Positions 34,935 through 46,527 of a stretch of DNA of 64,000 nt are shown here, one piece after another (the first letter of the stretch is position 1; every line of letters starts with the position of its first letter). Position numbers and translations under genes: made by a program. The stretch is from an uncultured virus (IMG/VR IMGVR_UViG_3300044699_000033) (Duplodnaviria; Heunggongvirae; Uroviricota; Caudoviricetes). The notes beneath the pieces are model-generated. The model saw nothing but the letters and a program-made list of their open reading frames with translations, was not told where the DNA came from and ran no database searches. The stretch is taken from IMG/VR virus record IMGVR_UViG_3300044699_000033; one strand, 5' to 3'.

Positions 34935-35634
34935 TAGTTCTTTCTATTAGTGTTTTTATCAATTTGCACATCTTCAGGAAGTTGCTTAGTTGGGAACATT
35001 AGCTGGAATGCTTTAGCCATCATCTCACTATGTAACCAGTCAGGAACCATAAATTGTGTATCTAGGAACCTTACACACTCTTTCTTATCATCACAGTCAG
35101 CAGCAGGAGAACATGGTTTAACATCTAGTAAAGCTATATCATCTGTAAAATATCCAACAATATTTACAAATCCTGGGTTATATTCAGGAAACCACAAATA
35201 CCCATCAGCAGGAAAAGAGTATTTGGTAGGCTGCATTTTGTGGTATGGGTTGTTCCTTCTACTCTGCCATGTAATAGGGTCTGTATAAAAAAAGTCTGTT
35301 GTATTATCTACAGAATTAACACTTCTTACAACAGGTCCAAGATTATCTATCCACATTTCAGGAAGCTTGTATTTAGTCCTGTATACTATACAGTTAGTCT
35401 TTACAGGGCAACATTTCTCAGTTGTAGGTACTTCTATTACCTCTTGGCAAGGGAGAGTTTGAAACAGAGAGTTATTTCTATATATTCTACCTGCTGAAAT
35501 TTCCCTCTTTACCAACCATTTACCCTGATTCATAAGAGCATTGTACAAGAACTGATTGCTGAAATTACTATCAGCATTCTGCTCTTGCAGCATTTTCCTA
35601 AAGTCATTTATTATTTGCCTTTTAGTACTTAACA
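34934..35634 (-). CDS. Tail ring protein
   Basis: MLSTKRQII...RTKYKLP...YLWF; crAss-like tail block synteny. Confidence 0.55.
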
Positions 35635-35639
35635 TATTT

Positions 35640-36164
35640 TTATATTTGTCTCCACATACTAAACCCTCCAAGAGTATTTCTTGATACTCTAATTTTCTCA
35701 GGATTTTGATCTGTGTACTTTTTTGCTATAATATTCATCTTCCTAGTAGGTTCAAAACCAAAGAATTGTAGCATTTTATTGAACTTAACTGCCCACCTTC
35801 TTTCCCATTTTATCTTTGCCACCTTCCCTCTTGTAAGAAGATTTATATGATTTATCTTCTCTCCTACTTCACTTGAACTATGAGGGTCTTCTGCTTTTAG
35901 CTTGTAAGGAATATACTGTAGTTTCAGCTCTCCTGTATATGAACCTAGTTTGACACCTAATGGATTAAAAATAGCTTCTTCTCTTATTGTTTCAGCTATG
36001 TCCATCCATAAGCGATAGAACTCTTTTGTAGAAAGCTTATATTCAGGAAACTGCTTTAAAAAACTTCTACAAAGCTCATCAGTAACTACTGATTTAGAGT
36101 ACTTAGCCTTTCTCATTCTGGGAGCTTTTTGGTCCACAGAGTATGTTGGTTTTGCTTGCTTCAC
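35640..36164 (-). CDS. IHF/HU-like DNA-binding protein (crAss type)
   Basis: Basic 174 aa; IREEAI...GVKLGSYTGELKL resembles the HU/IHF arm; heads the tail operon as in crAss-like phages. Confidence 0.5.
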   Translation of the reverse strand: MKQAKPTYSVDQKAPRMRKAKYSKSVVTDELCRSFLKQFPEYKLSTKEFYRLWMDIAETIREEAIFNPLGVKLGSYTGELKLQYIPYKLKAEDPHSSSEVGEKINHINLLTRGKVAKIKWERRWAVKFNKMLQFFGFEPTRKMNIIAKKYTDQNPEKIRVSRNTLGGFSMWRQI

Positions 36165-36197
36165 TTATAAAATTATAACTTATAATATCCTCAGTAT

Positions 36198-36228
36198 CAA
36201 ATATACATGATTTTGCTGACATATCAAA
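36198..36228 (-). promoter_or_regulatory. Bacteroidota promoter (TTTG-N19-TATATTTG) for the tail operon
   Basis: -7 element at 36198-36205, -33 TTTG at 36225-36228. Confidence 0.6.
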
Positions 36229-36244
36229 ATTAACCTATATTGTT

Positions 36245-36275
36245 AAAAGAAAAAGCCTCTCATTTTTGAGAGGCT
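36245..36275 (-). terminator. Intrinsic terminator
   Basis: AGCCTCTCA-AAAA-TGAGAGGCT followed by TTTTCTTTT. Confidence 0.85.
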
Positions 36276-36297
36276 CTGTTAGGGTTTTGGTTTACAA

Positions 36298-36567
36298 TTA
36301 TTCAGTTGCAGATGATGGTGGAACAGGCGTGACATTTTGTTGTATAAATGCCATAATTGGGTTAATTGTCTTCCAATCTAAGCCTTTAAGTTCACCTACT
36401 GCATTAAGGATGGCATTTATTGCCTTTTCTGAAATAAGGTACATTTTCTCCTGTGGTTGTGCAGGGGCTGTTGCTACTACTGGAGCTTTTGGTGCCCTTT
36501 TAGGAGCACCCTTCCCTGGTATATCCACTACTTTTGAGTCTGTTGTTGATTCTTCTGTTAATGACAT
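36298..36567 (-). CDS. Small hypothetical protein
   Basis: 89 aa with its own TATCTTTG promoter (36585-36592, TTTG 19 nt upstream) and terminator. Confidence 0.6.
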   Translation of the reverse strand: MSLTEESTTDSKVVDIPGKGAPKRAPKAPVVATAPAQPQEKMYLISEKAINAILNAVGELKGLDWKTINPIMAFIQQNVTPVPPSSATE

Positions 36568-36653
36568 AAAATATATATTTTTAACAAAGATATGAAATTT
36601 CCAGAATTATCCAAATCTTAAATGTTAAAGAAATGTTAAAGGATTATTAAAAG

Positions 36654-36736
36654 TGGGCAGAGAAGGGATTCGAACCTTCAAACTCTTAGGAGACCTGTTT
36701 TACAGACAGGGTGCTTTACCATTTGCATATCTACCC
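36654..36736 (-). tRNA. tRNA-Tyr: tRNA-Tyr(GTA)
   Basis: Anticodon arm CCTGT-CTGTAAA-ACAGG, long variable arm, TTCGAAT T-loop. Confidence 0.93.
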
Positions 36737-36740
36737 AAGT

Positions 36741-36831
36741 TGCGGAGAGTAAGGGAATTCAACCCTTATCCCAAATTAATGGGACTCTGTTTAGCAAACA
36801 GATGCAGCCAAGCAATATCTGCCTACTCTCC
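36741..36831 (-). tRNA. tRNA-Ser: tRNA-Ser(GCT)
   Basis: GGAGAGT acceptor, TCTGT-TTGCTAA-ACAGA, long variable arm, G73. Confidence 0.9.
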
Positions 36832-36836
36832 AATAG

Positions 36837-36918
36837 AGGAAGGTGAAGTAATCGAAACCTGATGTTTTACCACCGCCTGGGGTTCAAAGCCAGTTACCCA
36901 CCTTGAGTGCCACCTTCC
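36837..36918 (-). tRNA. tRNA-Ser: tRNA-Ser(TGA), 8/4-type cloverleaf
   Basis: Acceptor GGAAGGTG/CACCTTCC (8 bp), T-stem AGGT/ACTT (4 bp), loop TTTGAAC, variable arm. Confidence 0.8.
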
Positions 36919-36923
36919 TTATG

Positions 36924-36998
36924 TCCTTCTAGCTGGATTCGAACCTGCACTTTTACAAGGTTTAAGCTTGTCATGTCTGCCAATTGCATCATAGAAGG
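36924..36998 (-). tRNA. tRNA-Leu: tRNA-Leu(TAA), short variable region
   Basis: ACAAG-CTTAAAC-CTTGT; Leu-type D-arm ATGCAATTGGCAGACAT; A73. Confidence 0.88.
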
Positions 36999-37002
36999 AT
37001 AG

Positions 37003-37076
37003 TGACCCTGAAGAGACTCGAACTCTTAAATAACTGATCCTAAGTCAGTTGTGTCTACCAATTGCACCACAGGGCC
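37003..37076 (-). tRNA. tRNA-Leu: tRNA-Leu(TAG), short variable region
   Basis: ACTGA-CTTAGGA-TCAGT; Leu-type D-arm; A73. Confidence 0.9.
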
Positions 37077-37079
37077 AAT

Positions 37080-37109
37080 AAAAAACCCCCAACTTTTCAG
37101 CCGGGGGTT
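37080..37109 (-). terminator. Attenuator terminator A, upstream of the Leu/Ser/Tyr tRNAs
   Basis: AACCCCCGGCT-GAAA-AGTTGGGGGTT-TTTT ending 3 nt before tRNA-Leu(TAG). Confidence 0.88.
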
Positions 37110-37131
37110 ATTAAGTGTACGCAGGTCTCCG

Positions 37132-37209
37132 TTATTTTGTACATACCATTCCCAGCTTGTTCTTTGACAAGAGTGATAAACTGGAATAATATGATAGAAT
37201 GAATATCAT
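37132..37209 (-). CDS. Leader peptide A (MIFILSYYSSLSLLSKNKLGMVCTK)
   Basis: 25-codon ORF with 11 consecutive Leu/Ser/Tyr codons, overlapping the antiterminator strand. Confidence 0.8.
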   Translation of the reverse strand: MIFILSYYSSLSLLSKNKLGMVCTK

Positions 37210-37211
37210 TT

Positions 37212-37364
37212 TTAAATATGACCTGTTGCTGTCAATACTGCAAGCACTATAGTTGCTACTATAGCCACAATATTAACTGCTGTTTTTGTTGTTTGGCTTG
37301 CTGCAACATTCCCATTAAAGAGATACATTACAACAAATAAAGCTGCTAATAAGAACCAATTCAT
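37212..37364 (-). CDS. 50-aa two-helix membrane protein
   Basis: MNWFLLAALFVVMYLF...VAIVATIVLAVLTATGHI; ATG 3 nt after TATATTTG (37368-37375). Confidence 0.6.
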   Translation of the reverse strand: MNWFLLAALFVVMYLFNGNVAASQTTKTAVNIVAIVATIVLAVLTATGHI

Positions 37365-37406
37365 AGGCAAATATACAACCTTTTAACGAAGACTCTAAAT
37401 TTTATT

Positions 37407-37868
37407 TTAGAATTCTTCAGTTGTAGTTTCTGTAGTTGATTCTGTTGTTGTTGCTTCAGTTGTAGTCTCAGTTGTAGACTCTGTTGTAGTCTCAGTAGTT
37501 GTTTCAGTTGTAGTATCACCTACAGTAGAAGCAACATCTGCTGATGTAGCAGCAACTTGATCCTTGATTGCTTGAACTTGATCAATAACAGCTTGAATTT
37601 GTTCAGGAGATGCACTTTCTGCAAGTTGAGCCTGAAGAGCTGCAATTGTTTCATTAAGCCCTTGAACAACAGCAGCATTTGTATCAAGCAATGCTTGAAT
37701 TTGCTCTTGTTCTGCATCTACAGTTTCTTGTAGACCTGCAACTTGTGATTTAAGTTCTGCAACTTGTTCGTTAAGAATTTCGACTTTTCCCATAATTTGA
37801 TTGAGTTTTTTAAGTATTAAAGATTCGTTTTCAAAATGATTGTGAATATGTATGTGTAATCCTGTCAT
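37407..37868 (-). CDS. Coiled-coil protein with Thr/Glu-rich tail
   Basis: Heptad-like Q/A/L pattern; C-terminal TTTE repeats. Confidence 0.65.
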   Translation of the reverse strand: MTGLHIHIHNHFENESLILKKLNQIMGKVEILNEQVAELKSQVAGLQETVDAEQEQIQALLDTNAAVVQGLNETIAALQAQLAESASPEQIQAVIDQVQAIKDQVAATSADVASTVGDTTTETTTETTTESTTETTTEATTTESTTETTTEEF

Positions 37869-37958
37869 AATTTTAATATTACACTTTGTTTGTGTGGTAA
37901 ATATACGAATAATAATTGAATCTACAAAATTTATTTGTCTATTTTTTGTAAAAAATTT

Positions 37959-38114
37959 TTAGAATATAGCTTTTGCTATAAAATAGAGAAGTAAAACAAT
38001 TGCAGAAATGATAAGAATATGCTTTAATCTAAGTTTGTAAGGAGCGTAATAATGTACTCCCAATAAAATGATAAAACACAATACGAATACCAGTATAAAG
38101 TAAATTAAGGACAT
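37959..38114 (-). CDS. Small membrane protein
   Basis: MSLIYFILVFVLCFIILLG...ILIISAIVLLLYFIAKAIF, two hydrophobic helices. Confidence 0.45.
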   Translation of the reverse strand: MSLIYFILVFVLCFIILLGVHYYAPYKLRLKHILIISAIVLLLYFIAKAIF

Positions 38115-38233
38115 GAATAACTGCAATATAGTCCTTTTGTGCGAAACTATTATTATATAATTACGACTAAATGTTATATAATTCCCACATATAATACTAC
38201 AATTACTATGCCAAAGATATAACACATTACTAA

Positions 38234-38308
38234 TGTGGAGGATACCAGCATCGAACTGGTGACTCTAGCTTGCAAAGCTAGTGTTTTTGCCATCTATACT
38301 AATCCCCC
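38234..38308 (-). tRNA. tRNA-Ala: tRNA-Ala(TGC)
   Basis: G3:U70; CTAGC-TTTGCAA-GCTAG. Confidence 0.92.
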
Positions 38309-38373
38309 AGAAGGGCATTGATTGAGGGCTCAATGCTCAAAGCCTTTTGTAACATCCCTGCCTAAGGCAGAGA

Positions 38374-38535
38374 CTAAACTCCTTTAAATGTTTGACCACT
38401 TAAAGAGAAATACTCTCTTGCAGAAATTTTGTTTCTTACAAAGAGAGAGATTGCATTTCCTTTGTTAGCAGATTTCTTCTTATTTCTGCCACATTTCCTG
38501 CAACCTTTTACTTTTTGTCCATCTCTTTTAGCCAT
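38374..38535 (-). CDS. 53-aa basic protein with CxxC
   Basis: MAKRDGQKVKGCRKCGRNKKK...; A-rich upstream context. Confidence 0.5.
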   Translation of the reverse strand: MAKRDGQKVKGCRKCGRNKKKSANKGNAISLFVRNKISAREYFSLSGQTFKGV

Positions 38536-38614
38536 TTTCTGTGTTGGCTAGCTGTTTTGTCAGCTAGTTACCACGTTAGGCTATTTCTTGCTTTTCTCAT
38601 TTTGCTTGTTTTAG

Positions 38615-38687
38615 TGCAGCTAATAGGATCTGAGCCTATGACCTCTTGCTTATCAGACAAGTGCTCTACCAACTGAGCTATAGCTGC
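38615..38687 (-). tRNA. tRNA-Ile: tRNA-Ile(GAT)
   Basis: CTTGT-CTGATAA-GCAAG; canonical D-arm. Confidence 0.9.
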
Positions 38688-38691
38688 AATT

Positions 38692-38808
38692 TTAACAGGA
38701 AGTTTTATATTTTCTAATTCTTCCTCTCCTTCTTCTAATACAGATAAGACATGCACCATTGCATTTAATAATCTTTCTTATACTTTTTATTCTTTCCACC
38801 CTTCTCAT
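38692..38808 (-). CDS. 38-aa Arg/Lys/Cys-rich mini-protein
   Basis: MRRVERIKSIRKIIKCNGACLICIRRRRGRIRKYKTSC fills the spacer between two tRNAs. Confidence 0.35.
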   Translation of the reverse strand: MRRVERIKSIRKIIKCNGACLICIRRRRGRIRKYKTSC

Positions 38809-38882
38809 GTTGACTTGCCCAGAGTCGAACTGGGACAGCTCATGTTATGAGCATGATTCTCTACCAATTAAGATACAAGTCA
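38808..38882 (-). tRNA. tRNA-CAT (elongator Met or lysidine-Ile2)
   Basis: TCATG-CTCATAA-CATGA; identity not resolvable by eye. Confidence 0.85.
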
Positions 38883-38885
38883 ATT

Positions 38886-38960
38886 TGGCCGAGAGTGGGA
38901 GGTTCGAACTCCTACCTTTTGCGTGACAAGCAAATATGCAGCCATTACACCACACCCTCG
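38886..38960 (-). tRNA. tRNA-Asp: tRNA-Asp(GTC), folds best as 8/4
   Basis: TTTGC-TTGTCAC-GCAAA; G73 and encoded CCA. Confidence 0.88.
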
Positions 38961-38964
38961 GTAT

Positions 38965-39192
38965 TTACATATATCTTATAAGATGCTTTGCTTCCATTTC
39001 AGGAAGAAAATCTGCATCTCCCATATCTGAAACAGGTACATAAAATGTAATTACCATTACACCACTTCCTGGAGTACCTATGGTAGCCTCATAGTAAGCT
39101 GTACCTTTCCTGATATATAAGAACTTTGCCTTTGGTTTCTCTTTATAAAGAGCCTTTTTGATAATTTCAGTACTTAAAATGCTATTATCCAT
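38965..39192 (-). CDS. Hypothetical protein
   Basis: 75-aa ORF between tRNAs (IKKALYKEKPKA...VPVSDMGDADF). Confidence 0.65.
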   Translation of the reverse strand: MDNSILSTEIIKKALYKEKPKAKFLYIRKGTAYYEATIGTPGSGVMVITFYVPVSDMGDADFLPEMEAKHLIRYM

Positions 39193-39206
39193 ATTGTTGA
39201 TTTTAG

Positions 39207-39278
39207 TACTCTATGAGAGGATCGAACTCTCTTCAACAGTTTGAAGGACTGCTATCCTGGCCATTAGACGAATAGAGC
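39207..39278 (-). tRNA. tRNA-Glu: tRNA-Glu(TTC)
   Basis: GCAGT-CCTTCAA-ACTGT; Glu-type D-arm GTCTAATGGCCAGGAT. Confidence 0.85.
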
Positions 39279-39311
39279 ATTTCCACTTTAACCTGGTCCA
39301 GTGGGAAGGTA

Positions 39312-39385
39312 GGAGCACCAGTGGAGTAACAATCTCCATACTCCAGTTTGGAAGACTGGTGTGTATTCATCAACACTTCTGATGC
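39312..39385 (-). tRNA. tRNA-Gly: tRNA-Gly(TCC)
   Basis: CCAGT-CTTCCAA-ACTGG; U73; atypical T-loop ATTGTTA. Confidence 0.82.
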
Positions 39386-39544
39386 ATGGAGGGAGACTGG
39401 TTATTTATACCATTAATTAGGGACTCTCCCAGACCCTTCTTGCTCTTTGTTACTCAGGGAGAGGCGGTTCATAGTATTACCCACCTTCAAGAGATTACTT
39501 TATTCCCTCAGGTTCTTTACCCTCCCCGTGAGTAACTTAATTAT

Positions 39545-40032
39545 TTATATATCTCTGGGTGCTACAAACATGGTCAGCAGCCTTTGTTGTAATAACATGA
39601 TCTCCTTTGAATTCTGCATTATAGTTTAAACCCTTTCATCCATCCATTTACAGCAGATACTAGTTTATTACTTGCCCACTTTGGGATTTGATTATAGTCA
39701 AACTCTAAAGCTTCAAAGGATATAGGTATCTCAGAATCAATTAGTTGTGCTGCTTCTAATGTCCTTTCAGCTTCTCCAAAGAGTCTTGTGTACATGTCTC
39801 TTATGATTGGAAGCTGCTCTCTGTAATAGACAAAGTGTGCTCCTCTGTGTCCATACCTATATGCTACTACAGTAACATACACTGTATTCCTCTTTCTCCT
39901 ACCTTTTCCTCTTTCATCCTGAGAGTCAGTACCAACATAGATTTTCATATTAGGCCACTTTTGTAATTGCTCTAAAGTGTGCTCAACTATGTTAACTCTT
40001 TCACCTTGTTGTGTTCTGAAGTACTTGTCCAT
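39545..40032 (-). CDS. RNase H-like YkuK (DUF458) family protein; C-terminal frameshift
   Basis: KIYVGTDSQ...YVTVVAYRYG.RGAH...RLFGEAERT...FDYN; the shifted frame continues ...FKGDHVITTKAADH. Confidence 0.8.
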
Positions 40033-40273
40033 TGGTTCTAATTAATCTATAATACCTACCTCTTCTTGTTTTCTTTATAATAATCTTTAATCTTCTAAGA
40101 ATTCTAGGAACATGGTGACCCATATAAATCCTCTCATATCCTACCTTCTTTTCAAAAGCTTCATCAATGAGTTCCATTCCTCCTATACCTGTTCTGACAA
40201 CAATCTGTCTTGCAGGAGGACAGTCACCACCCCAATATTCTATAATTGCTTTCTTTATAGTTTCTGTATCCAT
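40001..40273 (-). CDS. Hypothetical basic protein
   Basis: MDTETIKKAII...; ATG 4 nt after TATCTTTG (40278-40285). Confidence 0.55.
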   Translation of the reverse strand: MDTETIKKAIIEYWGGDCPPARQIVVRTGIGGMELIDEAFEKKVGYERIYMGHHVPRILRRLKIIIKKTRRGRYYRLIRTNGQVLQNTTR

Positions 40274-40313
40274 ATTACAAAGATAATAATCAAATTTCAA
40301 AGAACCAAATAAA

Positions 40314-40389
40314 TGTTGCAGGTGTTGGATTCGAACCAACGATCTCTAAGGTTATGAGCCTTGAAGGATGACCACTTCCCTAACCTGCA
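40314..40389 (-). tRNA. tRNA-Met: tRNA-Met(CAT), initiator-like
   Basis: AAGG-CTCATAA-CCTT; fMet-like D-arm GGAAGTGGTCATCC. Confidence 0.85.
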
Positions 40390-40393
40390 ATAT

Positions 40394-40468
40394 TGCTCCC
40401 CCTCAGAATTTTGAAATCTGGACCTCAACCTTAACAGGGTTTTGCTCTGCCCTCTGAGCTAAAGGGGA
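40394..40468 (-). tRNA. tRNA-Asn: tRNA-Asn(GTT)
   Basis: TCCCCT acceptor, AACC-CTGTTAA-GGTT, G73. Confidence 0.9.
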
Positions 40469-40476
40469 ATATTTAG

Positions 40477-40549
40477 CACACCTGAGAGGATTCGAACCTC
40501 TATCTTACAGTTTAGAAAACTGGGGCAATCTCCTTTATACTACAGGTGC
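40477..40549 (-). tRNA. tRNA-Arg: tRNA-Arg(TCT)
   Basis: CAGT-TTTCTAA-ACTG. Confidence 0.87.
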
Positions 40550-40553
40550 ATTC

Positions 40554-40628
40554 TGTAGAGCCACCCAAATTCGAATTGGGAACAAAGGTTTAGGAAACCT
40601 TTATTTTATCCTATTAAACTATGGCTCC
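40554..40628 (-). tRNA. tRNA-Arg: tRNA-Arg(CCT)
   Basis: AAGGT-TTCCTAA-ACCTT. Confidence 0.87.
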
Positions 40629-40631
40629 ATT

Positions 40632-40705
40632 TGTACAGGGTGAGAATTTTGAAATCTCGACTTCCACTTTGTAGGAGTGGCACTCTTCCTCTGAGTTAAC
40701 CCTGC
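40632..40705 (-). tRNA. tRNA-Val: tRNA-Val(TAC)
   Basis: CCACT-CCTACAA-AGTGG; A73. Confidence 0.88.
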
Positions 40706-40706
40706 A

Positions 40707-40877
40707 TCACTTTAAATTCTTCAATTGTATCATTAAAGCTGATATTTCACTTGTATACTTACTTACACTAATTTCAGCAGTATTAGATGTTTTCTGCTTT
40801 AAATTAGAATACATTTCATCCTCAAGGAACTTAATCCTGTCTATTAGTTTTTGTCTTTTCTTTTCTATCTTGCTCAT
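40707..40877 (-). CDS. Small basic helical protein
   Basis: MSKIEKKRQKLIDRIKFLEDEM...; fills the spacer between tRNAs. Confidence 0.6.
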   Translation of the reverse strand: MSKIEKKRQKLIDRIKFLEDEMYSNLKQKTSNTAEISVSKYTSEISALMIQLKNLK

Positions 40878-40888
40878 ATATTTGGTTT

Positions 40889-40962
40889 TGTGACCCCAGT
40901 GAGCCATGATCTCACAACCCCAGTTTAAGAGACTGGTACTCTGCCAATTGAGCTATGGAGTC
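40889..40962 (-). tRNA. tRNA-Lys: tRNA-Lys(CTT)
   Basis: CCAGT-CTCTTAA-ACTGG; atypical T-loop. Confidence 0.85.
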
Positions 40963-40965
40963 TAG

Positions 40966-41038
40966 TCCCCCTGAGAGGAGTCGAACCTCCTGTCTTCTGA
41001 TTAAAAGTCAGTAGCTTGTCCAAATAAGCTCCAAGGGG
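40966..41038 (-). tRNA. tRNA-Lys: tRNA-Lys(TTT)
   Basis: CTGA-CTTTTAA-TCAG; TTCGACT T-loop. Confidence 0.9.
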
Positions 41039-41042
41039 AAAT

Positions 41043-41072
41043 AAAAAACCCAGAGCTTTTGACTCTGGGCTT
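41043..41072 (-). terminator. Attenuator terminator B, upstream of the Lys...Ala tRNAs
   Basis: GCCCAGAG-TCAAAAG-CTCTGGGT-TTTTT, 4 nt before tRNA-Lys(TTT). Confidence 0.88.
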
Positions 41073-41107
41073 CTAATATTCTGTCTGTACTTTATATTAA
41101 TTCAATA

Positions 41108-41188
41108 TCAGACAATAGAAAACCCAGAGCCAAATTTGCCATTTGCCTCAATTCCTCTATTATCCACTATCATATATAAGTTGTACAT
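41108..41188 (-). CDS. Leader peptide B (MYNLYMIVDNRGIEANGKFGSGFSIV)
   Basis: 26-codon ORF; 13 consecutive codons match the amino acids of the downstream tRNA set; overlaps the antiterminator strand 41116-41131. Confidence 0.8.
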   Translation of the reverse strand: MYNLYMIVDNRGIEANGKFGSGFSIV

Positions 41189-41215
41189 TTTCTGCTGTTA
41201 TTAAATTTTAGAATA

Positions 41216-41247
41216 CAAATATACGGAATTACTTTGAACTTTCCAAA
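41216..41247 (-). promoter_or_regulatory. Bacteroidota promoter (TTTG-N20-TATATTTG) driving leader B and tRNA group B
   Basis: -7 element 41216-41223; -33 TTTG 41244-41247. Confidence 0.75.
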
Positions 41248-41534
41248 TTTATTTTTGGAACTTTCTTAATTAACCCTAATTTCTTCTTCATACTCTTAGT
41301 TTGGGGAGCAGCTTGCCTCTTTTGCAGGAGTTCAGCTTTGTCCTTTCTCTTTGTATGGTAATTTATTAATTCCCAATGAGTCTCATGATTAAGTTGGAAA
41401 ACCTTGTCAAAAAACTCTATTTTCTCTTTTTCCTTAATCTGGTCTAGCCTTTTCTTGTATAAATCTTTCCTTATTTGATTATATACCCTTGCTTTCATGG
41501 CAAGAGTTTTCAATGATATATTTATCTGTTTCAT
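41229..41534 (-). CDS. Basic helical hypothetical protein downstream of the PTH2-like gene
   Basis: MKQINISLKTLAMKARVYNQIRK... Confidence 0.55.
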   Translation of the reverse strand: MKQINISLKTLAMKARVYNQIRKDLYKKRLDQIKEKEKIEFFDKVFQLNHETHWELINYHTKRKDKAELLQKRQAAPQTKSMKKKLGLIKKVPKINLESSK

Positions 41535-41887
41535 TTTTATTAATTTTATTTTTGAATAAAAGTGGTATTTTAGATACCAATTTCTGTGTAAGTGGACTTG
41601 GTTCAATAGCTATTGCTGTTATTTCATTCCCAATGTCAGGTTCTCTAAAAGCTGTATAGGCTAATTGTAGCCTGTCACAGTTTTGCATTAGAAGCTTAAG
41701 TTGTTTTTCATTCTTAAGTTCTAAGAGAACAAGGTAATTGGAGTTTTTAAACCAAGGACCAGCTCTTCCAGGATGTTCAAAGATAAATTAATAGCAGCAT
41801 GGGCTGACTGCACTGCTTTGTACCCATCTGATAAGTCCTCTCTTGTGACTAATTATCAGCTTACTGTATTTCTTGTATCTACTTCAT
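41479..41887 (-). CDS. Peptidyl-tRNA hydrolase PTH2-like protein (frameshifted; TAG at codon 3)
   Basis: Reconstructed KLII-VTREDLSDGYKAVQSAHAAI...NYLVLL...FREPDIGNEITAIAIEP...IPLL, the phage PTH2-like signature. Confidence 0.75.
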
Positions 41888-41901
41888 AATGAATCTTTTA
41901 G

Positions 41902-41974
41902 AGATGCTGATGGGGCTCAACCCACAACTGGGAATTTTAGAGATTGCCTGCTCTATCAATTGAGCTACAGCACC
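41902..41974 (-). tRNA. Amber suppressor tRNA (anticodon CTA)
   Basis: GGTGCTG/CAGCATC acceptor, GCTC/GAGC D-stem, loop CT-CTA-AA. One anticodon-stem mismatch and a 6-nt T-loop (possible errors). Own TACATTTG promoter at 41981-41988. Confidence 0.72.
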
Positions 41975-42009
41975 ATAGCACAAATGTAGGCAAATTCAGG
42001 AGATTTACC

Positions 42010-42781
42010 AATATTATTTTTAAGAAGTTTAATTGTCCAGAATACAGCAGCCAAATTGGGTCTGTAATATAACTGAAAGGGAGGTAAAAATGCCCCTTAT
42101 TTCCCAGTTTGTTCCCCAAGAGTTTCTGATTTTACAATTGCTGTCTTTCATCATCATACCCTACACAGCATACAGCATGAACTCCTAAGCATTTTCTCAT
42201 CAGGTGTAGCAATGGCACTATACCTGTGTTGTAACCTGTGTGCTTTCAAAGCTTGAATACACTGCAAAACCAAAGACAATGTAAAGTCCTGTAGCTAGAC
42301 AAGTTTTTAGCTCATTAATGTTAGTATTATCCAGTCTCTCATAAACATCTATTTTATGAGGTATGGCTGTTGTGTAAGCACCAGTAGGTGGTTTTTGCCT
42401 GAATTTGATTTATTTTATAAGGCCAAATTGTCTCTGGACAAGCACCCCAGTTATAATACTTTTAATACCATCTCTTAACATGGCACCTGAATCATAGGGA
42501 ACAGTACCTTCTATAACCTTTCATTGTTAATATATAAAGAGCCTAGAGGGTTGTATGATGGGAAGTCCTTCTTTGAATTTTGTGAAATCAAGAGAAAGAG
42601 AGATAGCATTTCCTGTGCAGGGAGGCCTAAGCTTCTCTTGGTCATATGTATATGTTACCTGTCTAGATAAGTCTACCCTGTGAGGTAGTTCAATTTGTGC
42701 AGGTGAGAAATTTTAAGTCTCTAACAGTCAGGAGTATCTGGCTTACCAGGTGTATTTATATCTATGTTTTAATTGTGACAT
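42010..42781 (-). CDS. Papain-like C1A cysteine peptidase (heavily frameshifted)
   Basis: Pieces read YDQ...CTGNAIS, PSRLFIY, DSGAMLRDGIKS, WPY, HAVCCVGYDD, RNSWG..WG.KGHFYLP. Confidence 0.8.
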
Positions 42782-42797
42782 ACCAAGTTTATTTTTG

Positions 42798-42868
42798 AGC
42801 AGGTAAAGAGATTTGAACTCTTAAAAGCAGTTTCGTGGACTGCTGGTTAATCCATTGCCTATACCTGC
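42798..42868 (-). tRNA. tRNA-Arg: tRNA-Arg(ACG)
   Basis: GCAGT-CCACGAA-ACTGC; GCAGGTA/TACCTGC acceptor. Confidence 0.8.
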
Positions 42869-42869
42869 A

Positions 42870-43200
42870 TTATTTGAAATAATTAAGAGCAAACATTGCA
42901 AGGTTAAAATAATGGTAATTGCTGCTACCCACCCTGCCTGCCTGTTCTGCTTATCTATAAGAAGCTGGACTTTAGCATTAACTTCCTTTATTTCAGACTC
43001 ATATACTTCCCTAGGAAATAAACTAGCCTGCATAAGTCTTAAACTTTCTGCCTCATGATTAAGTATTTCTAAACGTCTTTCATACTCTTTGCCTGAATCT
43101 CAAGAGCTTTTTCTTGGTATTTATCCTTTTCTGTTAAGATTTCCTTTGCATGGTTAATTTGAGCTTGCAAGAATTCCTTTGTATATTGTATTTCATCCAT
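42870..43200 (-). CDS. Coiled-coil protein with C-terminal TM helix (frameshifted)
   Basis: MDEIQYT...EKRLEILNHEAESLRLMQASLFPREVYE...GWVAAITIILTL. Confidence 0.45.
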
Positions 43201-43248
43201 CTTCTATAATATAAGGAAATTAACGGAAATCTCCAAATCTTTCTGTTT

Positions 43249-43321
43249 TGGGTGTAAGGACGGTATTGAGCCGACTTCCATGCTCCACAGGCATGTGCTT
43301 CACCTTAAAGCTTCAAACACC
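43249..43321 (-). tRNA. tRNA-His: tRNA-His(GTG)
   Basis: G-1/C73; CATGC-CTGTGGA-GCATG. Confidence 0.82.
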
Positions 43322-43358
43322 ATTTGCGTAGAATAAGTGCCTTATTCTCCTTAAAAAG

Positions 43359-43427
43359 ATCCCCTGACTGGACTTGAACAATAACTTTAGATCCAAATTC
43401 TAAAATGTTACCATACACTACAGAGGA
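43359..43427 (-). tRNA. tRNA-Gln: tRNA-Gln(TTG), T-arm degraded (likely sequence error)
   Basis: T1-A72 acceptor TCCTCTG/CAGGGGA; TTAGA-ATTTGGA-TCTAA. Confidence 0.7.
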
Positions 43428-43430
43428 ATG

Positions 43431-43503
43431 TGCACCCATGTAAAGATTCGAACTCTAACTAACTGGTTTGGAATCAGTTGTGCTACCATTACACTACACG
43501 GGT
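43431..43503 (-). tRNA. tRNA-Trp: tRNA-Trp(CCA)
   Basis: ACTG-ATTCCAAAC-CAGT; G73. Confidence 0.87.
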
Positions 43504-43545
43504 ATATATCTTATATCCATTTAGAGACTTTTAAAGTCCCCACAG

Positions 43546-43617
43546 TGGTACAGGGCAGATTTGAACTGCCAACACCCTGAGCTTCATTCAGGTGCTCTAC
43601 AATGGAGCTACTGTACC
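43546..43617 (-). tRNA. tRNA-Phe: tRNA-Phe(GAA)
   Basis: CCTGA-ATGAAGC-TCAGG. Confidence 0.87.
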
Positions 43618-43707
43618 ATTTGTCACTGTACACTCTTTGAGGGTTGTACTCCTGTTGGAGACCCGTTATGACATTAAATATAAAAGACGGGTCAAGCTTC
43701 TATATCT

Positions 43708-43780
43708 TGGAGTCACCTAGAGGATTTGAACCCCTGTAGGAGCTTTTGCAGAGCTCTGCCTACCACTCGGCCAAGGTGAC
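43708..43780 (-). tRNA. tRNA-Cys: tRNA-Cys(GCA)
   Basis: GAGCT-CTGCAAA-AGCTC; U73 and CCA. Confidence 0.92.
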
Positions 43781-43850
43781 AATAGTCAGGGAAGTACCAC
43801 CGATGGCTTTGAGTACACTTTCAGTACCTGAAATTAGCTTCCCTTTTAAG

Positions 43851-43925
43851 AGCCTCCTGTCGGGCTCAAACCAACTAATTCCTCATTACAAGTGAGGTAC
43901 TCCTTATCTTCAGAGAATAGGAGGC
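43851..43925 (-). tRNA. tRNA-Thr: tRNA-Thr(TGT)
   Basis: GCC acceptor start; CCTCA-CTTGTAA-TGAGG. Confidence 0.85.
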
Positions 43926-44014
43926 ATTGGGCTGGTGTAATGGCTGCCCTGCCAATTGACTTCTCGACTACACCTGTGAGTCAATAGACCTATTATATTG
44001 CTCAGAGAATCACC

Positions 44015-44089
44015 TGTATAGTAGACCGGGGTCGAACCTGCATTCCACTTGCTCCCAGGCAAGGGACTTACCAATTAGTCAACTACTAT
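44015..44089 (-). tRNA. Probable tRNA-Pro (NGG; anticodon loop reads only 6 nt, CTGGGA)
   Basis: Full cloverleaf; CTTGC-CTGGGA-GCAAG, one base probably missing. Confidence 0.65.
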
Positions 44090-44094
44090 AAATG

Positions 44095-44126
44095 AAAAAC
44101 CTTCATCTTGAGATCATGAAGGGCTT
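44095..44126 (-). terminator. Attenuator terminator C, upstream of the Pro...Arg(ACG) tRNAs
   Basis: CCTTCAT-GATCTCAAG-ATGAAGG-TTTTT, 5 nt before the first tRNA. Confidence 0.78.
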
Positions 44127-44149
44127 TAAAGAATCCGTGTTAAATATTT

Positions 44150-44231
44150 TTAACAGACATAGCAAACCCTTCCTGTTTCTGGTTGAAACTGGGGACAAAA
44201 CGTATGCCATGTATGACGTAATTTTGTTCAT
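44150..44231 (-). CDS. Leader peptide C (MNKLRHTWHTFCPQFQPETGRVCYVC; requires removal of one A near codon 3)
   Basis: 82 nt from ATG to TAA (81+1); 13 consecutive codons CGT...CCA match the downstream tRNA set. Confidence 0.7.
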
Positions 44232-44236
44232 TTTTG

Positions 44237-44323
44237 TTATTTTTTAGGCTTTGGTCTTGGTCTAGTGGGTCTACCACCACCACTTCCACAACCACAGCCA
44301 ACTATTGCTGTGTTTTTTACCAT
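44237..44323 (-). CDS. 28-aa peptide MVKNTAIVGCGCGSGGGRPTRPRPKPKK
   Basis: Clean ATG-TAA ORF between the promoter and leader C. Confidence 0.55.
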   Translation of the reverse strand: MVKNTAIVGCGCGSGGGRPTRPRPKPKK

Positions 44324-44339
44324 GTGTTTAATTATAACA

Positions 44340-44370
44340 CAAATATACTAAATTTTTTTCAACTTCCAAA
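44340..44370 (-). promoter_or_regulatory. Bacteroidota promoter (TTTG-N19-TATATTTG) driving leader C and tRNA group C
   Basis: -7 element 44340-44347; -33 TTTG 44367-44370; lies just after a terminator. Confidence 0.78.
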
Positions 44371-44384
44371 TTTATTTTTTAAAG

Positions 44385-44409
44385 AAAAAAGGGATGTAGA
44401 AACATCCCT
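44385..44409 (-). terminator. Intrinsic terminator ending the fibre gene operon
   Basis: AGGGATGT-TTCT-ACATCCCT-TTTTT. Confidence 0.85.
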
Positions 44410-44459
44410 AGAAGTTACCCTTGGAAACCAACAACCAAGGACTTTATTAAACTAAAGAT

Positions 44460-45423
44460 TTATGTAAATGTTCCTGTTATATACCAAGTTGTACTTGCTG
44501 TTTTAGTTATAGTTGCAACAGCATCTGCTGGAATTGTTCTACTACCTGTTCCTGTAGTACCATCTCCTCTTTGTAAAGTATCAGAGTTTATTGCAAGTGT
44601 AATAGCACCTGAACCTGTGGCATTAACAATTGTTATTCTTGTTCCCACTGCATATGCCACCGAAGCATTAGCAGGAATTGTCCATGTTGTAGCTGTAGAG
44701 GAATGTAAAAGTATATTATTAGCATCACCTATAACAAATGTGTAAGTTTGTCCGGAGATGTAACTATTGATGCAGAAGAGTACCCTGAATAACCTGTTAT
44801 TCCAGAATATGCACTATAGCCTGAAGTTGATGAGTATCCGCTGTAACCTGTATAGCCACTGAAGCCTGACCAGGTCCACTGTAGCCAGAGTACCCTGTGT
44901 AGCCTGAGTAACCAGACTTGCCTGAGTAACCAGAGAAACCACTGGTACTAGAATATCCGCTGAAACCAGATGTAGAAGAGTAACCAGAATATCCTGTATA
45001 ACCTGAGTAACCAGATTTTCCAGAATATCCGGAATAACCAGTATAACCTGAAAATCCACTACCTGAATAACCACTGAAACCTGAACCTGAATAACCAGAA
45101 TAACCAGATTGACCTGTGTAGCCGCTAAAGCCTGAAGTAGATGAATACCCACTAAAGCCTGAAGTGGATGAATAACCTGAAAAACCACTTAAACCTAAAC
45201 CAGAATATCCTGAGAATCCAGAGCCTGAATATCCGCTATATCCTGACCTTCCACTATAACCTGAGTATCCAGATATTGAGGAGTAACCACTAAAACCTGA
45301 AGAATAATAGCCTGAGTAGCCACTAGTGCCTCCTCCAGCAATCTTTCTTACAGCTTTTTTAACTTCTGTTTTCTTGAAAAAAGCAGCTATAGTATCCCCT
45401 AAAAATTCTCTTAATACACTCAT
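44460..45423 (-). CDS. SGY-repeat fibre protein with C-terminal beta-sandwich module (frameshifted)
   Basis: MSVLREFLG..., SG(Y/F) repeats, then TYTFVIGDA...WTIPANASVAYAVGTRITIV...WYITGTFT. Confidence 0.65.
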
Positions 45424-45427
45424 GATG

Positions 45428-46527
45428 TTATATTTGTGGGTGAGAAACTGCACCATCAAAGTTAACCACTACGGTTTTTGATGTTGCACCTATGAATGCT
45501 GATTGCAATTCTAAAAGTATGTTATTTGCAGACTTTCTGATAATATATCCATATTGTTGAGTGATTTGGTCTCCAGCCTGAGGAGCATCTATATAGTTGA
45601 TTCCTTTAAGGTCTGCTGTTCCTATTTGCTCTGCAAGGGTAAGACATGTTGTTGGAATATTACCCATTGTTATTGTAAACTTCCTATTTGCAGTAGAATA
45701 AGCTCCAAATGCTATTGTATATGTTATAGAGCCTCTGAATTCAAGAGTACCATCAAATCTATATCTATATTGAGGATTACCTGCTGTATAAACAACATTT
45801 GCGTTTCCTGTTGCAACTAGTGTTATATTTCTCCATGTAGCATCAAAACAAGACCTTGCTATTGAATAGATGGATTTGTTGAAACCACATAAGGGTCAGC
45901 AGTAGTACCTATTCCTGTAACTGTTACTCCTGTGCCATTTACTATCTTAGTTTCTGAACCATCTGGTGCTGTATAAGCTGTTTTAAACTTACCATCTGCA
46001 CCAAGAGTTAGCTGATTTCCTGAATCTGAAGAGATAAGTGTAGAAGGAACAAGCTGAAGTCTTAGCACTTCATCTGCTCCTGGATTGACAATTGACTTAA
46101 CTATGTAAGTTCCACCATCAATCTTACCATATAGATATCCTGTAGTAGTATCATTTTCTGACACCTTTGCATTAATATCAATAGGTACCCCACCTTCTAC
46201 AGCATTGATTACAAACTTCTTATCACATCCTGAGCCTGTTTGTGTGAAGGAAATATTAAGACCTTCTTGAAAGACATCCCAAGGATATCTAGGAGGACAT
46301 GTATCATTAGCATCTATGACTATTTTACCTTGAGATGCAAGAATTTCCTCATACTTTGAACAAATCTGAGCAATTACCTGATCTCCAGTCATATCATTTG
46401 TAACCCCTAGTGCTTCACACACTCCAGGCAATGTTATGCAAGGGAATGTTGTGGGATTCAAACATCCACAGTTGTCATAAGGACTACATGGGCTGCATGT
46501 TGTTGTATCGCAAGTTGAATAAGACAT
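45428..46527 (-). CDS. Cys-rich N-terminal tail/head fibre protein (frameshift near 45859)
   Basis: ORF 45859-46527 continues in another frame (...ATWRNITL...QYRYRFDGTLEFRG...) into 45428-45667. Confidence 0.55.

What the first reader, a model, noticed from the sequence alone, without database searches (positions are those of the whole stretch)
44089..44231. Attenuator C: R-H-T-W-H-T-F-C-P-Q-F-Q-P leader, one base out of frame with its ATG
CGT CAT ACA TGG CAT ACG TTT TGT CCC CAG TTT CAA CCA (44218-44180) uses only the eight amino acids of the downstream tRNAs. Antiterminator GAAGGGTTT/AAGCCCTTC, with an inner TGTTAAA/TTTAACA stem, competes with terminator CCTTCAT/ATGAAGG-T5. As sequenced, ATG AAC AAA A TTA has one extra base. 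Removing it gives 26 aa, the same length as leader B. This is most likely a homopolymer error in an error-rich zone; a real +1 frameshift is a less likely alternative.
Basis: partly seen in the sequence, partly recalled or inferred. Interest (0 to 1): 0.8.

Follow-up and report, generated by a model that had tools for sequence, protein, structure and literature searches.

The report
Leader-peptide attenuator gating phage tRNA genes
A tiny test gene, spelled in exactly the eight amino acids whose tRNA genes lie behind it and wired to a switchable transcription stop, probably lets this soil crAss-like phage make those tRNAs only when ribosomes read their codons slowly; its broken reading frame here is most likely a sequencing error.

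Summary
At 44218-44180 (- strand) 13 consecutive codons use only R,H,T,W,F,C,P,Q. These are the eight amino acids of the tRNA block that starts 6 nt after the terminator (Pro,Thr,Cys,Phe,Trp,Gln,His,Arg-ACG). In a blind six-frame scan this is the longest such run in the window. The run is one base out of frame with its ATG.

Ten related loci (eight distinct leader peptides) carry a homologous leader, always in frame, with a terminator and a co-varying antiterminator. The closest relative reads AAC AAG TTA where the window has AAC AAA A TTA. Short-read contigs from four soil runs differ from the window by many 1-nt indels in this zone, but none covers the A-run. So the extra A is very probably an assembly error. 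A second indel may hide at 44178-44176.

Two more leaders (B, A) list the amino acids of the other two tRNA blocks. Together they cover all 20.

Best reading: a trp-type ribosome-mediated attenuator applied to tRNA genes. Eight literature searches found no description. This scan has noted the same kind of element before on other, unrelated phage DNA. There are no expression data.

The parts
44340..44370 (-). Promoter-like site TTTGG-N18-TATATTTG. This is the Bacteroidota-type -33/-7 pattern, a consensus I recall rather than tested. It drives the micro-ORF and leader C.
   Evidence: 4 matches in the window against 0.63 expected. All are on the - strand inside the tRNA region, and one lies directly before leader B. 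The same motif precedes the leaders in L001, L003 and L006.
44237..44323 (-). Conserved 28-codon micro-ORF with a G-C-G-C-G core. It is the first ORF on the leader transcript. Function unknown.
   Evidence: Homologues with synonymous changes occur in L001, L002/L004, L003, L006 and L013. No Pfam family.
44229..44231 (-). Start codon of leader C.
   Evidence: The ATG is in frame with the sensor run in 10 of 10 related loci.
44222..44225 (-). AAAA run holding the one extra base that breaks the frame.
   Evidence: L006 has AAG then TTA here. No contig covers it.
44180..44218 (-). Sensor run of 13 codons, R H T W H T F C P Q F Q P. All eight amino acids of the downstream tRNA block are present. 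It also forms region 1 of the structure.
   Evidence: the longest such run in 127,996 codons. Arg is CGT, which accounts for 5 of 504 Arg codons in the window's long ORFs and is the codon family read by the block's tRNA-Arg(ACG).
44176..44178 (-). AAA run that is a candidate site of a second 1-nt error (hypothesis).
   Evidence: The third frame downstream reads QEGFAMSVKNI-stop. This is like the in-frame E-G tails of all relatives. The site is not covered by contigs.
44164..44172 (-). Region 2: antiterminator 5' arm GAAGGGTTT.
   Evidence: The GA(A/G)GG(G/C) block is conserved in 9 of 9 aligned leaders and co-varies with region 3.
44138..44155 (-). Inner hairpin TGTTAAA/TTTAACA inside the antiterminator loop. 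It holds the +1-frame stop TAA at 44152-44150.
44118..44127 (-). Region 3: antiterminator 3' arm, overlapping the terminator's 5' arm.
   Evidence: 6 of 7 arm bases paired upstream in the nascent fold.
44095..44122 (-). Intrinsic terminator: CCTTCAT, a 9-nt loop, ATGAAGG, then T5. It ends 6 nt before the first tRNA.
   Evidence: Hairpin energy is -7.0 kcal/mol. RNAalifold consensus across 9 loci gives 7 pairs, 5 with compensatory changes.
42797..44089 (-). Regulated tRNA block: Pro (6-nt anticodon loop as sequenced), Thr(TGT), Cys, Phe, Trp, Gln(TTG), His, Arg(ACG).
   Evidence: The same block and order occur in L001, L003, L006, L011, L013 and L016.
41045..41247 (-). Sister unit B: promoter (41247-41216), 26-codon leader (41188-41108) and terminator (41073-41045). 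Its run M I V D N R G I E A N G K holds all ten amino acids of the next tRNA block (Lys to Ala).
   Evidence: Arg is AGA, matching tRNA-Arg(TCT).
37084..37209 (-). Sister unit A: leader (37209-37132) with run L S Y Y S S L S L L S, and terminator (37109-37084). It sits before tRNA-Leu, Leu, Ser, Ser, Tyr.
   Evidence: (longest L/S/Y run in the window).

Best explanation
This is a ribosome-mediated (leader-peptide) transcription attenuator in front of the first tRNA sub-operon of an uncultured crAss-like phage from soil.

Proposed working:
- Transcription starts at a Bacteroidota-type promoter and runs through a short leader ORF.
- The sensor part of that ORF lists one or two codons for each of the eight amino acids whose tRNA genes follow (Pro, Thr, Cys, Phe, Trp, Gln, His, Arg-CGY).
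- If any of these codons is read slowly because the matching charged tRNA is short, the ribosome stalls on region 1.
- Region 2 (GAAGGG...) is then free to pair with region 3, the terminator cannot form, and RNA polymerase runs on into the tRNA genes.
- If decoding is fast, the ribosome reaches the end of the leader and covers region 2. Regions 3 and 4 form the terminator and transcription stops 6 nt before tRNA-Pro.
- Because the products are the very tRNAs being tested, this is a demand-driven negative feedback on tRNA supply.

Two sister units (B and A) control the other two tRNA blocks in the same way.

In this window the leader is one base out of frame with its ATG, and perhaps shifted once more near 44177. 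This is most likely a homopolymer error of the assembly, not biology.

What is shown: the anatomy, conservation, codon/tRNA matching, co-variation and alternative folds.
What is inferred: translation of the leader, stalling, coupling of transcription to translation, and the direction of regulation.
For: **Match of leader and tRNA set**
- The run is the longest of its kind in the window and in 8 related loci.
- It is absent from relatives without a tRNA array (L005/L012 and L019).

**Codon-level match**
- Arg is CGT or CGC in all 7 leader C loci (6 distinct leaders) that contain Arg: WIN, L006, L001, L002, L004 and L003, and L011. This fits the block's tRNA-Arg(ACG).
- CGT is only 5 of 504 Arg codons in the window's long ORFs.
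- Leader B uses AGA in 5 of 5, matching its block's tRNA-Arg(TCT).

**Leader content tracks tRNA content**
- In L015, neither tRNA-Arg(ACG) in block 1 nor tRNA-Arg(TCT) in block B was detected. Both of its leader runs lack Arg.
- L014 and L018 keep only tRNA-Cys. They have a leader with 5 Cys that has lost R, H, W and F.

**Translation**
- The ATG is in frame in 10 of 10 related loci.
- L001 and L003 differ in the run by 5 synonymous changes and 1 change that stays within the set. L002 and L004 differ by 1 synonymous change.
- Residue order shuffles between loci, but the set is kept.

**Structure**
- The terminator ends 3-10 nt before the first tRNA.
- Regions 2 and 3 co-vary (21 of 20,000 permutations).
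- In the nascent RNA with a ribosome stalled mid-run, region 3 pairs upstream in 9 of 9 distinct loci.
- With the ribosome at the end of the run or at the stop codon, the terminator forms in 6 of 6 and 10 of 10.
- With no ribosome, regions 1:2 plus the terminator form in the five relatives folded (L006, L001, L002, L004, L003), but not in the window.

**The frame break as an artefact**
- L006 is in frame at the homologous site.
- Three window genes are frameshifted at homopolymers relative to L001.
- Short-read contigs from four soil runs differ from the window by many 1-nt indels between 41.6 and 44.9 kb. Several are shared by two runs. One (+A behind 41784) lies at the frameshift site of the PTH2-like gene and has the sign needed to restore its frame.

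**Other**
- No Rfam family matches the element.
Against: - There are no expression, ribosome-profiling or termination data. No RNA run holds the stretch.
- No read or contig covers 44176-44608, so the extra A itself is unverified.
- At equilibrium, with a mid-run stalled ribosome, the terminator is still the MFE in 6 of 11 loci (L001, L011, L013, L015, L016, L017). Antitermination there must be kinetic.
- With no ribosome, the window's MFE shows the antiterminator rather than regions 1:2 plus the terminator.
- The leader/tRNA match is not perfect in relatives.
  - W is in the leader, but no tRNA-Trp was detected in L002/L004 and L015.
  - tRNA-Arg(ACG) is present, but there is no Arg codon in the leaders of L013 and L016.
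  - L013's run is interrupted by A, I and G.
- In L002, L004 and L016/L017, an HNH gene with its own promoter separates the leader from the intact tRNA-Pro.
- The window's terminator is weak (-7.0 kcal/mol), and the consensus scan did not list it.
- tRNA-Thr in the window rests on a relaxed ARAGORN call only.
- Whether transcription and translation are coupled in the unknown host is not known.
Confidence: 0.8

Rival explanations
1. The frame break is real in this phage. It would be either a programmed +1 shift on AAA-A (tRNA-Lys re-pairing one base on) or an inactivating mutation in a decaying leader.
For: As sequenced, the A4 run allows perfect re-pairing of a Lys tRNA in the +1 frame. The block's tRNA-Pro also looks damaged, with a 6-nt anticodon loop. 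No read covers the site.
Against: None of the 10 related loci needs a shift. L006 has AAG TTA. The codon after the slip site is an ordinary ATT. Independent short-read contigs contradict the window at many 1-nt positions nearby, one at the site of a broken ORF and with the sign that would restore it. All gene-breaking differences checked lie in homopolymers.
Confidence: 0.1
2. The ORF encodes a functional Cys-rich micro-protein (C-P-x-C ... C-x-x-C, like a zinc knuckle). The hairpin would simply end its gene, and the likeness to the tRNA set would be incidental.
For: L001, L002, L003 and L011 have four or more Cys in a CxxC...CxxC-like spacing, and the peptide is conserved.
Against: The window, L006 and L015 lack the four-Cys pattern. 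The C-terminal TGT/ATG codons are the reverse complement of the ACA/CAT sensor codons, so they are explained by region 1:2 pairing. In the window GAAGGG is conserved as RNA although it is read in another frame. Leaders B and A follow the same logic with quite different amino-acid sets. The CGY versus AGA choice follows the tRNA block. There is no room for a promoter between the terminator and the tRNA.
Confidence: 0.05
3. This is an RNA-only switch, such as a tRNA-binding or protein-binding leader, that is not read by ribosomes.
For: The alternative hairpins exist without invoking translation.
Against: No T-box or other Rfam family matches at E up to 1. The ATG is conserved and in frame. Synonymous changes prevail in the run. 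The amino-acid set is kept while the nucleotide order changes.
Confidence: 0.04
4. The match is a chance run of codons next to an ordinary terminator.
For: None beyond the fact that the frame has no start codon as sequenced.
Against: The expected number of runs of 13 or more in the window is about 0.02 (0.298^13 x 128,000). The run recurs in 8 related loci at the same place.
Confidence: 0.01

Closest known systems
Multivalent leader-peptide attenuators of enterobacterial amino-acid operons (trp, his, leu; thr with Thr+Ile; ilvGMEDA with Ile/Leu/Val). Named from recall; no paper was read.
   Same: A short translated leader is enriched in sensor codons. Four RNA regions give 1:2, 2:3 (antiterminator) and 3:4 (terminator plus U-run). 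Ribosome position chooses the fold. Rare codons are used as sensors (here CGT, CCC and ACG).
   Different: The regulated genes are tRNA genes, not biosynthetic enzymes. The sensor lists 8 (or 10, or 3) different amino acids once or twice each, instead of repeating one to three. The element is in a phage and has Bacteroidota-type promoters. No Rfam leader family matches.
pheST (pheM) leader attenuator of phenylalanyl-tRNA synthetase in E. coli (recall)
   Same: Leader-peptide attenuation applied to a component of the decoding apparatus. The signal is the supply of charged tRNA.
   Different: It controls a synthetase and senses one amino acid. Here the tRNAs themselves are the product, so the loop closes directly on the sensed molecule.
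T-box riboswitches (Rfam RF00230)
   Same: They tie expression of translation-related genes to tRNA status through a terminator/antiterminator choice.
   Different: T-boxes bind uncharged tRNA directly and need no ORF. None was detected here. This element has a conserved in-frame ORF.
Earlier unpublished notes of this scan on other phage and CPR genomes (e1-2978539, e1-5886956, e1-5802700 and others)
   Same: They describe the same idea: a promoter, a leader ORF spelled in the codons of the following tRNA array, and a switchable terminator.
   Different: They concern different, unrelated DNA (no sequence look-alike). They are AI notes that I did not test. This case partitions all 20 amino acids over three leaders.

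Membership tests
Leader-peptide (ribosome-mediated) transcription attenuator | Short ORF with a start codon in the 5' leader of the regulated transcript | tested here: inconclusive
   In the window the ATG is one base out of frame with the sensor run. It is in frame in 10 of 10 related loci. Met if the extra A is an error.
Leader-peptide (ribosome-mediated) transcription attenuator | Leader enriched in codons tied to the regulated genes | tested here: met
   The run has 13 codons and all 8 amino acids of the block. It is the longest such run in 127,996 codons. CGY matches tRNA-Arg(ACG).
Leader-peptide (ribosome-mediated) transcription attenuator | Intrinsic terminator between the leader and the regulated genes, with no promoter after it | tested here: met
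   A hairpin plus T5 ends 6 nt before the tRNA. The RNAalifold consensus has 5 of 7 pairs with compensatory changes. No promoter motif follows it.
Leader-peptide (ribosome-mediated) transcription attenuator | Mutually exclusive antiterminator whose 5' arm lies at the end of the leader ORF | tested here: met
   (9 of 9 loci). Co-variation. At equilibrium it wins in only 5 of 11 loci.
Leader-peptide (ribosome-mediated) transcription attenuator | Read-through depends on translation and on charged-tRNA supply | not testable with these tools
   No RNA run holds the stretch. This needs reporter or in-vitro assays.
Classical amino-acid operon attenuators (Rfam Trp/His/Leu/Thr leader families) | Regulated genes make or charge the sensed amino acid; sequence matches the family model | tested here: not met
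   The downstream genes are tRNAs. No Rfam leader family matches at E up to 1.
T-box riboswitch | Specifier loop and T-box motif that bind tRNA | tested here: not met
   No RF00230 match in 35500-45500 at E up to 1.
Crassvirales-like phage (context) | Crassvirus capsid, muzzle and tail-ring proteins | tested here: met
   Pfam Crass_capsid, crAss_MUZ and CrAss_Ring_2, all above their cut-offs. No relative in the deposited phage collection.

The most novel reading that the evidence does not exclude
The three leaders together form a complete catalogue of the 20 amino acids. It is split into three OR-gate sensors of 8, 10 and 3 amino acids. Arg appears twice, as CGY and as AGA. Each sensor gates exactly the tRNA block that reads its codons. 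If so, the phage would monitor the host's decoding capacity codon class by codon class. Shortage could come from a codon-usage mismatch, host tRNA cleavage by defence nucleases, or host shut-off. The phage would then replace only what is missing, with direct feedback from its own tRNA products. This would be a previously undescribed way of regulating tRNA genes.
Probability: 0.6. Interest if true: 0.92.

Novelty: new variant of a known kind. Interest (0 to 1): 0.85.

Why it matters
To my recollection, tRNA genes are thought to be controlled at promoters (growth rate, stringent response). Why phages carry tRNA arrays, and when they use them, is debated. A leader that tests the very codons its tRNAs read would show that a phage measures decoding shortage and answers it on demand.

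It would extend attenuation from enzymes to the adaptor molecules themselves. It would also give a compact natural multi-input sensor (8, 10 or 3 amino acids) for use as a reporter of tRNA supply.

The hypothesis that phage tRNAs compensate for host tRNA loss becomes directly testable, by reading one terminator.

For the annotation, it shows that the broken frame, the odd tRNA-Pro and several split genes in 39.5-46 kb are most likely assembly errors.

Tried and rejected
- **Own genome:** not held.
- **Window's own record:** the 38-mer of the sensor run is not in viral contigs. A 23-mer found only the relative L006 in metagenome contigs.
- **Deposited phages:** only a tRNA-Trp look-alike by DNA and nothing by capsid protein.
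- **Sequencing runs:** no RNA holder listed. Eleven soil DNA runs hold small shares.
- **Laid contigs:** contigs of four runs do not cover 44176-44608. The three indels of the one contig over 44016-44175 were not printed. So neither the A-run, the possible second indel nor the terminator could be checked.
- **TAG read as Gln:** does not mend the split genes.
- **Rfam:** apart from tRNA matches, only a sub-threshold PK-repZ match on the other strand overlaps the leader (E 0.25).
- **Pfam:** nothing for the short ORF pieces at 42029-42279, which looked protease-like to my eye, nor for the micro-ORF.
- **MAFFT/RNAalifold:** on 9 leaders it recovers only the terminator, because the arms are poorly aligned. 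I therefore tested the antiterminator by matched-versus-mismatched duplex energies.
- **Equilibrium folds:** the terminator is still preferred in 6 of 11 loci under a stalled ribosome.
- scripts returned nothing because the wrong record was read. This was fixed.
- **Earlier notes:** look-ups by place and by sequence found nothing.
- **Literature:** eight searches (listings only, no paper read) gave no report of leader-peptide control of tRNA genes.

Full report
**What is there**

All genes of the window lie on the - strand. Pfam places the phage among crAss-like viruses: Crass_capsid, crAss_MUZ and CrAss_Ring_2 all score above their cut-offs. No deposited phage is related.

A tRNA array runs from 44089 to 36653. 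ARAGORN finds 22 genes at default settings and 29 at a relaxed threshold, one of them on the opposite strand.

The finding's sequence features are all present at the stated coordinates:
- ATG at 44231-44229, then AAC AAA A TTA.
- Thirteen codons R H T W H T F C P Q F Q P at 44218-44180. They lie in a frame that has TGA at 44230-44228 and no start codon.
- GAAGGGTTT at 44172-44164, facing AAGCCCTTC at 44126-44118.
- An inner hairpin at 44155-44138.
- CCTTCAT/ATGAAGG plus T5 at 44122-44095.
- tRNA-Pro starting at 44089.

As sequenced, the ATG frame stays open for 42 codons, into the terminator loop.

**The tRNA block**

The block behind the element is Pro, Thr(TGT), Cys, Phe, Trp, Gln, His, Arg(ACG), at 44089-42797.
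- His is found by Rfam and by relaxed ARAGORN.
- Thr is found only by relaxed ARAGORN. A Thr gene sits at the same place in the closest relative.
- tRNA-Pro has a 6-nt anticodon loop as sequenced.

**Is the match more than chance?**

I scanned all six frames of the window (127,996 codons) for runs of codons from the eight-amino-acid set, which has a frequency of 0.298. The longest run is this one: 13 codons with all 8 amino acids. The next has 9 codons and 4 amino acids.

The same scan with the ten amino acids of the second block picks leader B, and with Leu/Ser/Tyr it picks leader A:
- Leader B (41188-41108) has the run M I V D N R G I E A N G K, with all ten amino acids present.
- Leader A (37209-37132) has the run L S Y Y S S L S L L S.

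Eight, ten and three amino acids, with Arg counted twice, make all twenty.

**Relatives**

- A neighbouring gene led to five IMG/VR loci. The gene just upstream led to nine more distinct contigs.
- A 23-mer found one closer metagenome contig, L006.
- Ten loci carry the syntenic array: L001, L002, L003, L004, L006, L011, L013, L015, L016 and L017.
- All ten have a leader C with its ATG in frame. There are 8 distinct peptides of 26-30 residues, for example M-N-K-L-R-H-T-W-H-T-F-C-P-Q-C-Q-T-Q-E-G... in L006.
- In 8 of them the blind scan again returns the leader as the longest run (12-16 codons). L013 has an interrupted version.
- Relatives without an array (L005/L012, L019) have no such run.

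Two relatives, L014 and L018, keep only tRNA-Cys. They have a promoter, a leader with five Cys that has lost R, H, W and F, and a terminator. In L015, tRNA-Arg(ACG) was not detected in block 1, nor tRNA-Arg(TCT) in block B, and both of its leader runs lack Arg.

The match is not perfect everywhere:
- W is in the leader, but no tRNA-Trp was detected in L002/L004 and L015.
- L013 and L016 have tRNA-Arg(ACG) but no Arg codon in the leader.

**Codon level**

- Arg is CGT or CGC in all 7 leader C loci (6 distinct leaders) that have Arg. It is AGA in 5 of 5 leaders B. This follows the anticodons ACG and TCT of the respective blocks.
- In the window's long ORFs CGT is 5 of 504 Arg codons, so this choice is not codon bias.
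- The run also holds the rare codons CCC (0.03 of Pro) and ACG (0.01 of Thr).
- Between L001 and L003 the run differs by five synonymous changes and one change within the set. L002 and L004 differ by one synonymous change.
- Residue order shuffles between loci, but the set is kept. That fits a sensor, not a folded peptide.

**Structure**

| Ribosome state modelled | Result |
|---|---|
| None | Sensor codons (ACACAUACA...) pair with UGUAUGUGU downstream (1:2) and the terminator forms in the five relatives folded (L006, L001, L002, L004, L003); the window shows the antiterminator instead |
| Stalled mid-run, full RNA at equilibrium | Antiterminator replaces terminator in 5 of 11 loci (window, L006, L002, L004, L003); terminator stays in 6 |
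| Stalled mid-run, nascent RNA before the 3' arm exists | Terminator's 5' arm is paired upstream in 9 of 9 distinct loci |
| At the end of the run | Terminator forms in 6 of 6 |
| At the stop codon | Terminator forms in 10 of 10 |

- The leader's 3' part fits its own terminator arm better than the arms of other loci: -14.6 against -11.3 kcal/mol, with 21 of 20,000 permutations doing as well.
- RNAalifold finds the terminator, with compensatory changes in 5 of 7 pairs.
- The terminator ends a few bases before the first tRNA in every locus seen. No promoter motif lies between them.

**The frame break**

L006 reads AAC AAG TTA where the window reads AAC AAA A TTA.

Against L001 proteins, three window genes change frame at homopolymers, near 45862, 41785 and 39630.

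Contigs of four soil short-read runs are nearly identical to the window but differ by many 1-nt indels between about 41.6 and 44.9 kb. Several are shared by two runs. One (+A behind 41784) lies at the frameshift site of the PTH2-like gene and has the sign needed to restore its frame.

None of these contigs covers 44176-44608. The evidence for an artefact at the A-run is therefore strong but indirect.

A further point: in all relatives GA(A/G) GGN is read E-G, followed by 7-8 codons and a stop. In the window that reading lies in the third frame...Q-E-G-F-A-M-S-V-K-N-I-stop (ORF 44140-44301). It resembles L006's tail. This is a hypothesis.

**Mechanism**

The anatomy is that of a trp-type attenuator (a model I recall, not one I tested). 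Stalling on the sensor codons frees region 2 for region 3, and RNA polymerase reads on into the tRNA genes. Fast decoding brings the ribosome over region 2, and the terminator forms.

Because the products are the tested tRNAs, the loop is a negative feedback on their supply. Any one of eight shortages suffices, so the sensor works as an OR gate.

Translation, stalling and coupling are inferred. No RNA data exist.

**Rivals**

- A real or programmed frameshift (0.1).
- A Cys-rich micro-protein with an ordinary terminator (0.05).
- An untranslated RNA switch (0.04).
- Chance (0.01).

The evidence for and against each is given in the Rival explanations section.

**Known and new**

No Rfam family matches. 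Eight full-text searches returned no paper on leader-peptide control of tRNA genes. I saw listings only.

This scan's own earlier notes describe the same kind of element on other, unrelated phage and CPR genomes (no sequence likeness). I did not test those notes.

I class this as a new variant of a known kind. The switch is classical. The target (tRNA genes), the catalogue-like multi-amino-acid sensor and the phage setting are not.

Noticed in passing
window 41901-41974 (-); L001 17226-17298; L006 3168-3241: The array holds a suppressor-type tRNA with anticodon CTA (it would read TAG). L001 has one too. In the matching place the closest relative L006 has anticodon TCA (it would read TGA). Reading TAG as Gln does not clearly lengthen the window's genes.
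   Followed up: partly
window 44237-44323 (-): A conserved micro-ORF with a G-C-G-C-G core and a basic Pro/Lys tail lies just before leader C. It is present with synonymous changes in L001, L002/L004, L003, L006 and L013. In some loci it lies before, and in others behind, the leader's promoter. No Pfam family.
   Followed up: partly
window 44016-44089 (-): tRNA-Pro has a 6-nt anticodon loop (CTGGGA) where relatives have 7 nt with TGG. This is probably another 1-nt assembly error. One short-read contig over it has 3 indels, which were not printed.
   Followed up: partly
window ~45862, ~41785, ~39630 (-): Three genes change frame at homopolymers relative to L001: a tail-fibre-like gene, a PTH2-like peptidyl-tRNA hydrolase and an RNaseH_like gene. 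At 41784 a short-read contig has the extra base at the frameshift site.
   Followed up: yes
window 41108-41188 and 37132-37209 (-): Sister leaders B and A carry their own terminators. B lists all ten amino acids of the Lys-to-Ala tRNA block, with Arg as AGA. A is a Ser/Tyr/Leu run before Leu, Leu, Ser, Ser, Tyr. Both are conserved in relatives.
   Followed up: yes
L014 11225-11370; L018 11220-11365: Relatives that keep only tRNA-Cys still have a promoter, a leader with five Cys (R, H, W and F lost) and a terminator.
   Followed up: partly
window 43790-43848 (-); L006 2176-2235: A stretch of about 55 nt between tRNA-Thr and tRNA-Cys is almost identical in the window and L006. It folds into a closed stem with two small hairpins, but no better than shuffles (z -1.4 and -1.1). 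Not a tRNA by Rfam.
   Followed up: partly
L002 13275-13835; L004 13276-13836; L016 11385-11946: An HNH endonuclease gene with its own promoter sits between a tRNA 5' fragment, right after the leader's terminator, and an intact tRNA-Pro. This suggests homing-endonuclease insertion into the first tRNA gene.
   Followed up: no
window 43926-44015 (-): About 85 nt between tRNA-Pro and tRNA-Thr have no counterpart in L006. No tRNA or Rfam match.
   Followed up: no
window 44797-45459 and 1702-2697 (-): Collagen-like G-Y-S repeat proteins (Pfam Collagen). The first lies in an insertion relative to L001, between the fibre-like gene and the leader.
   Followed up: no
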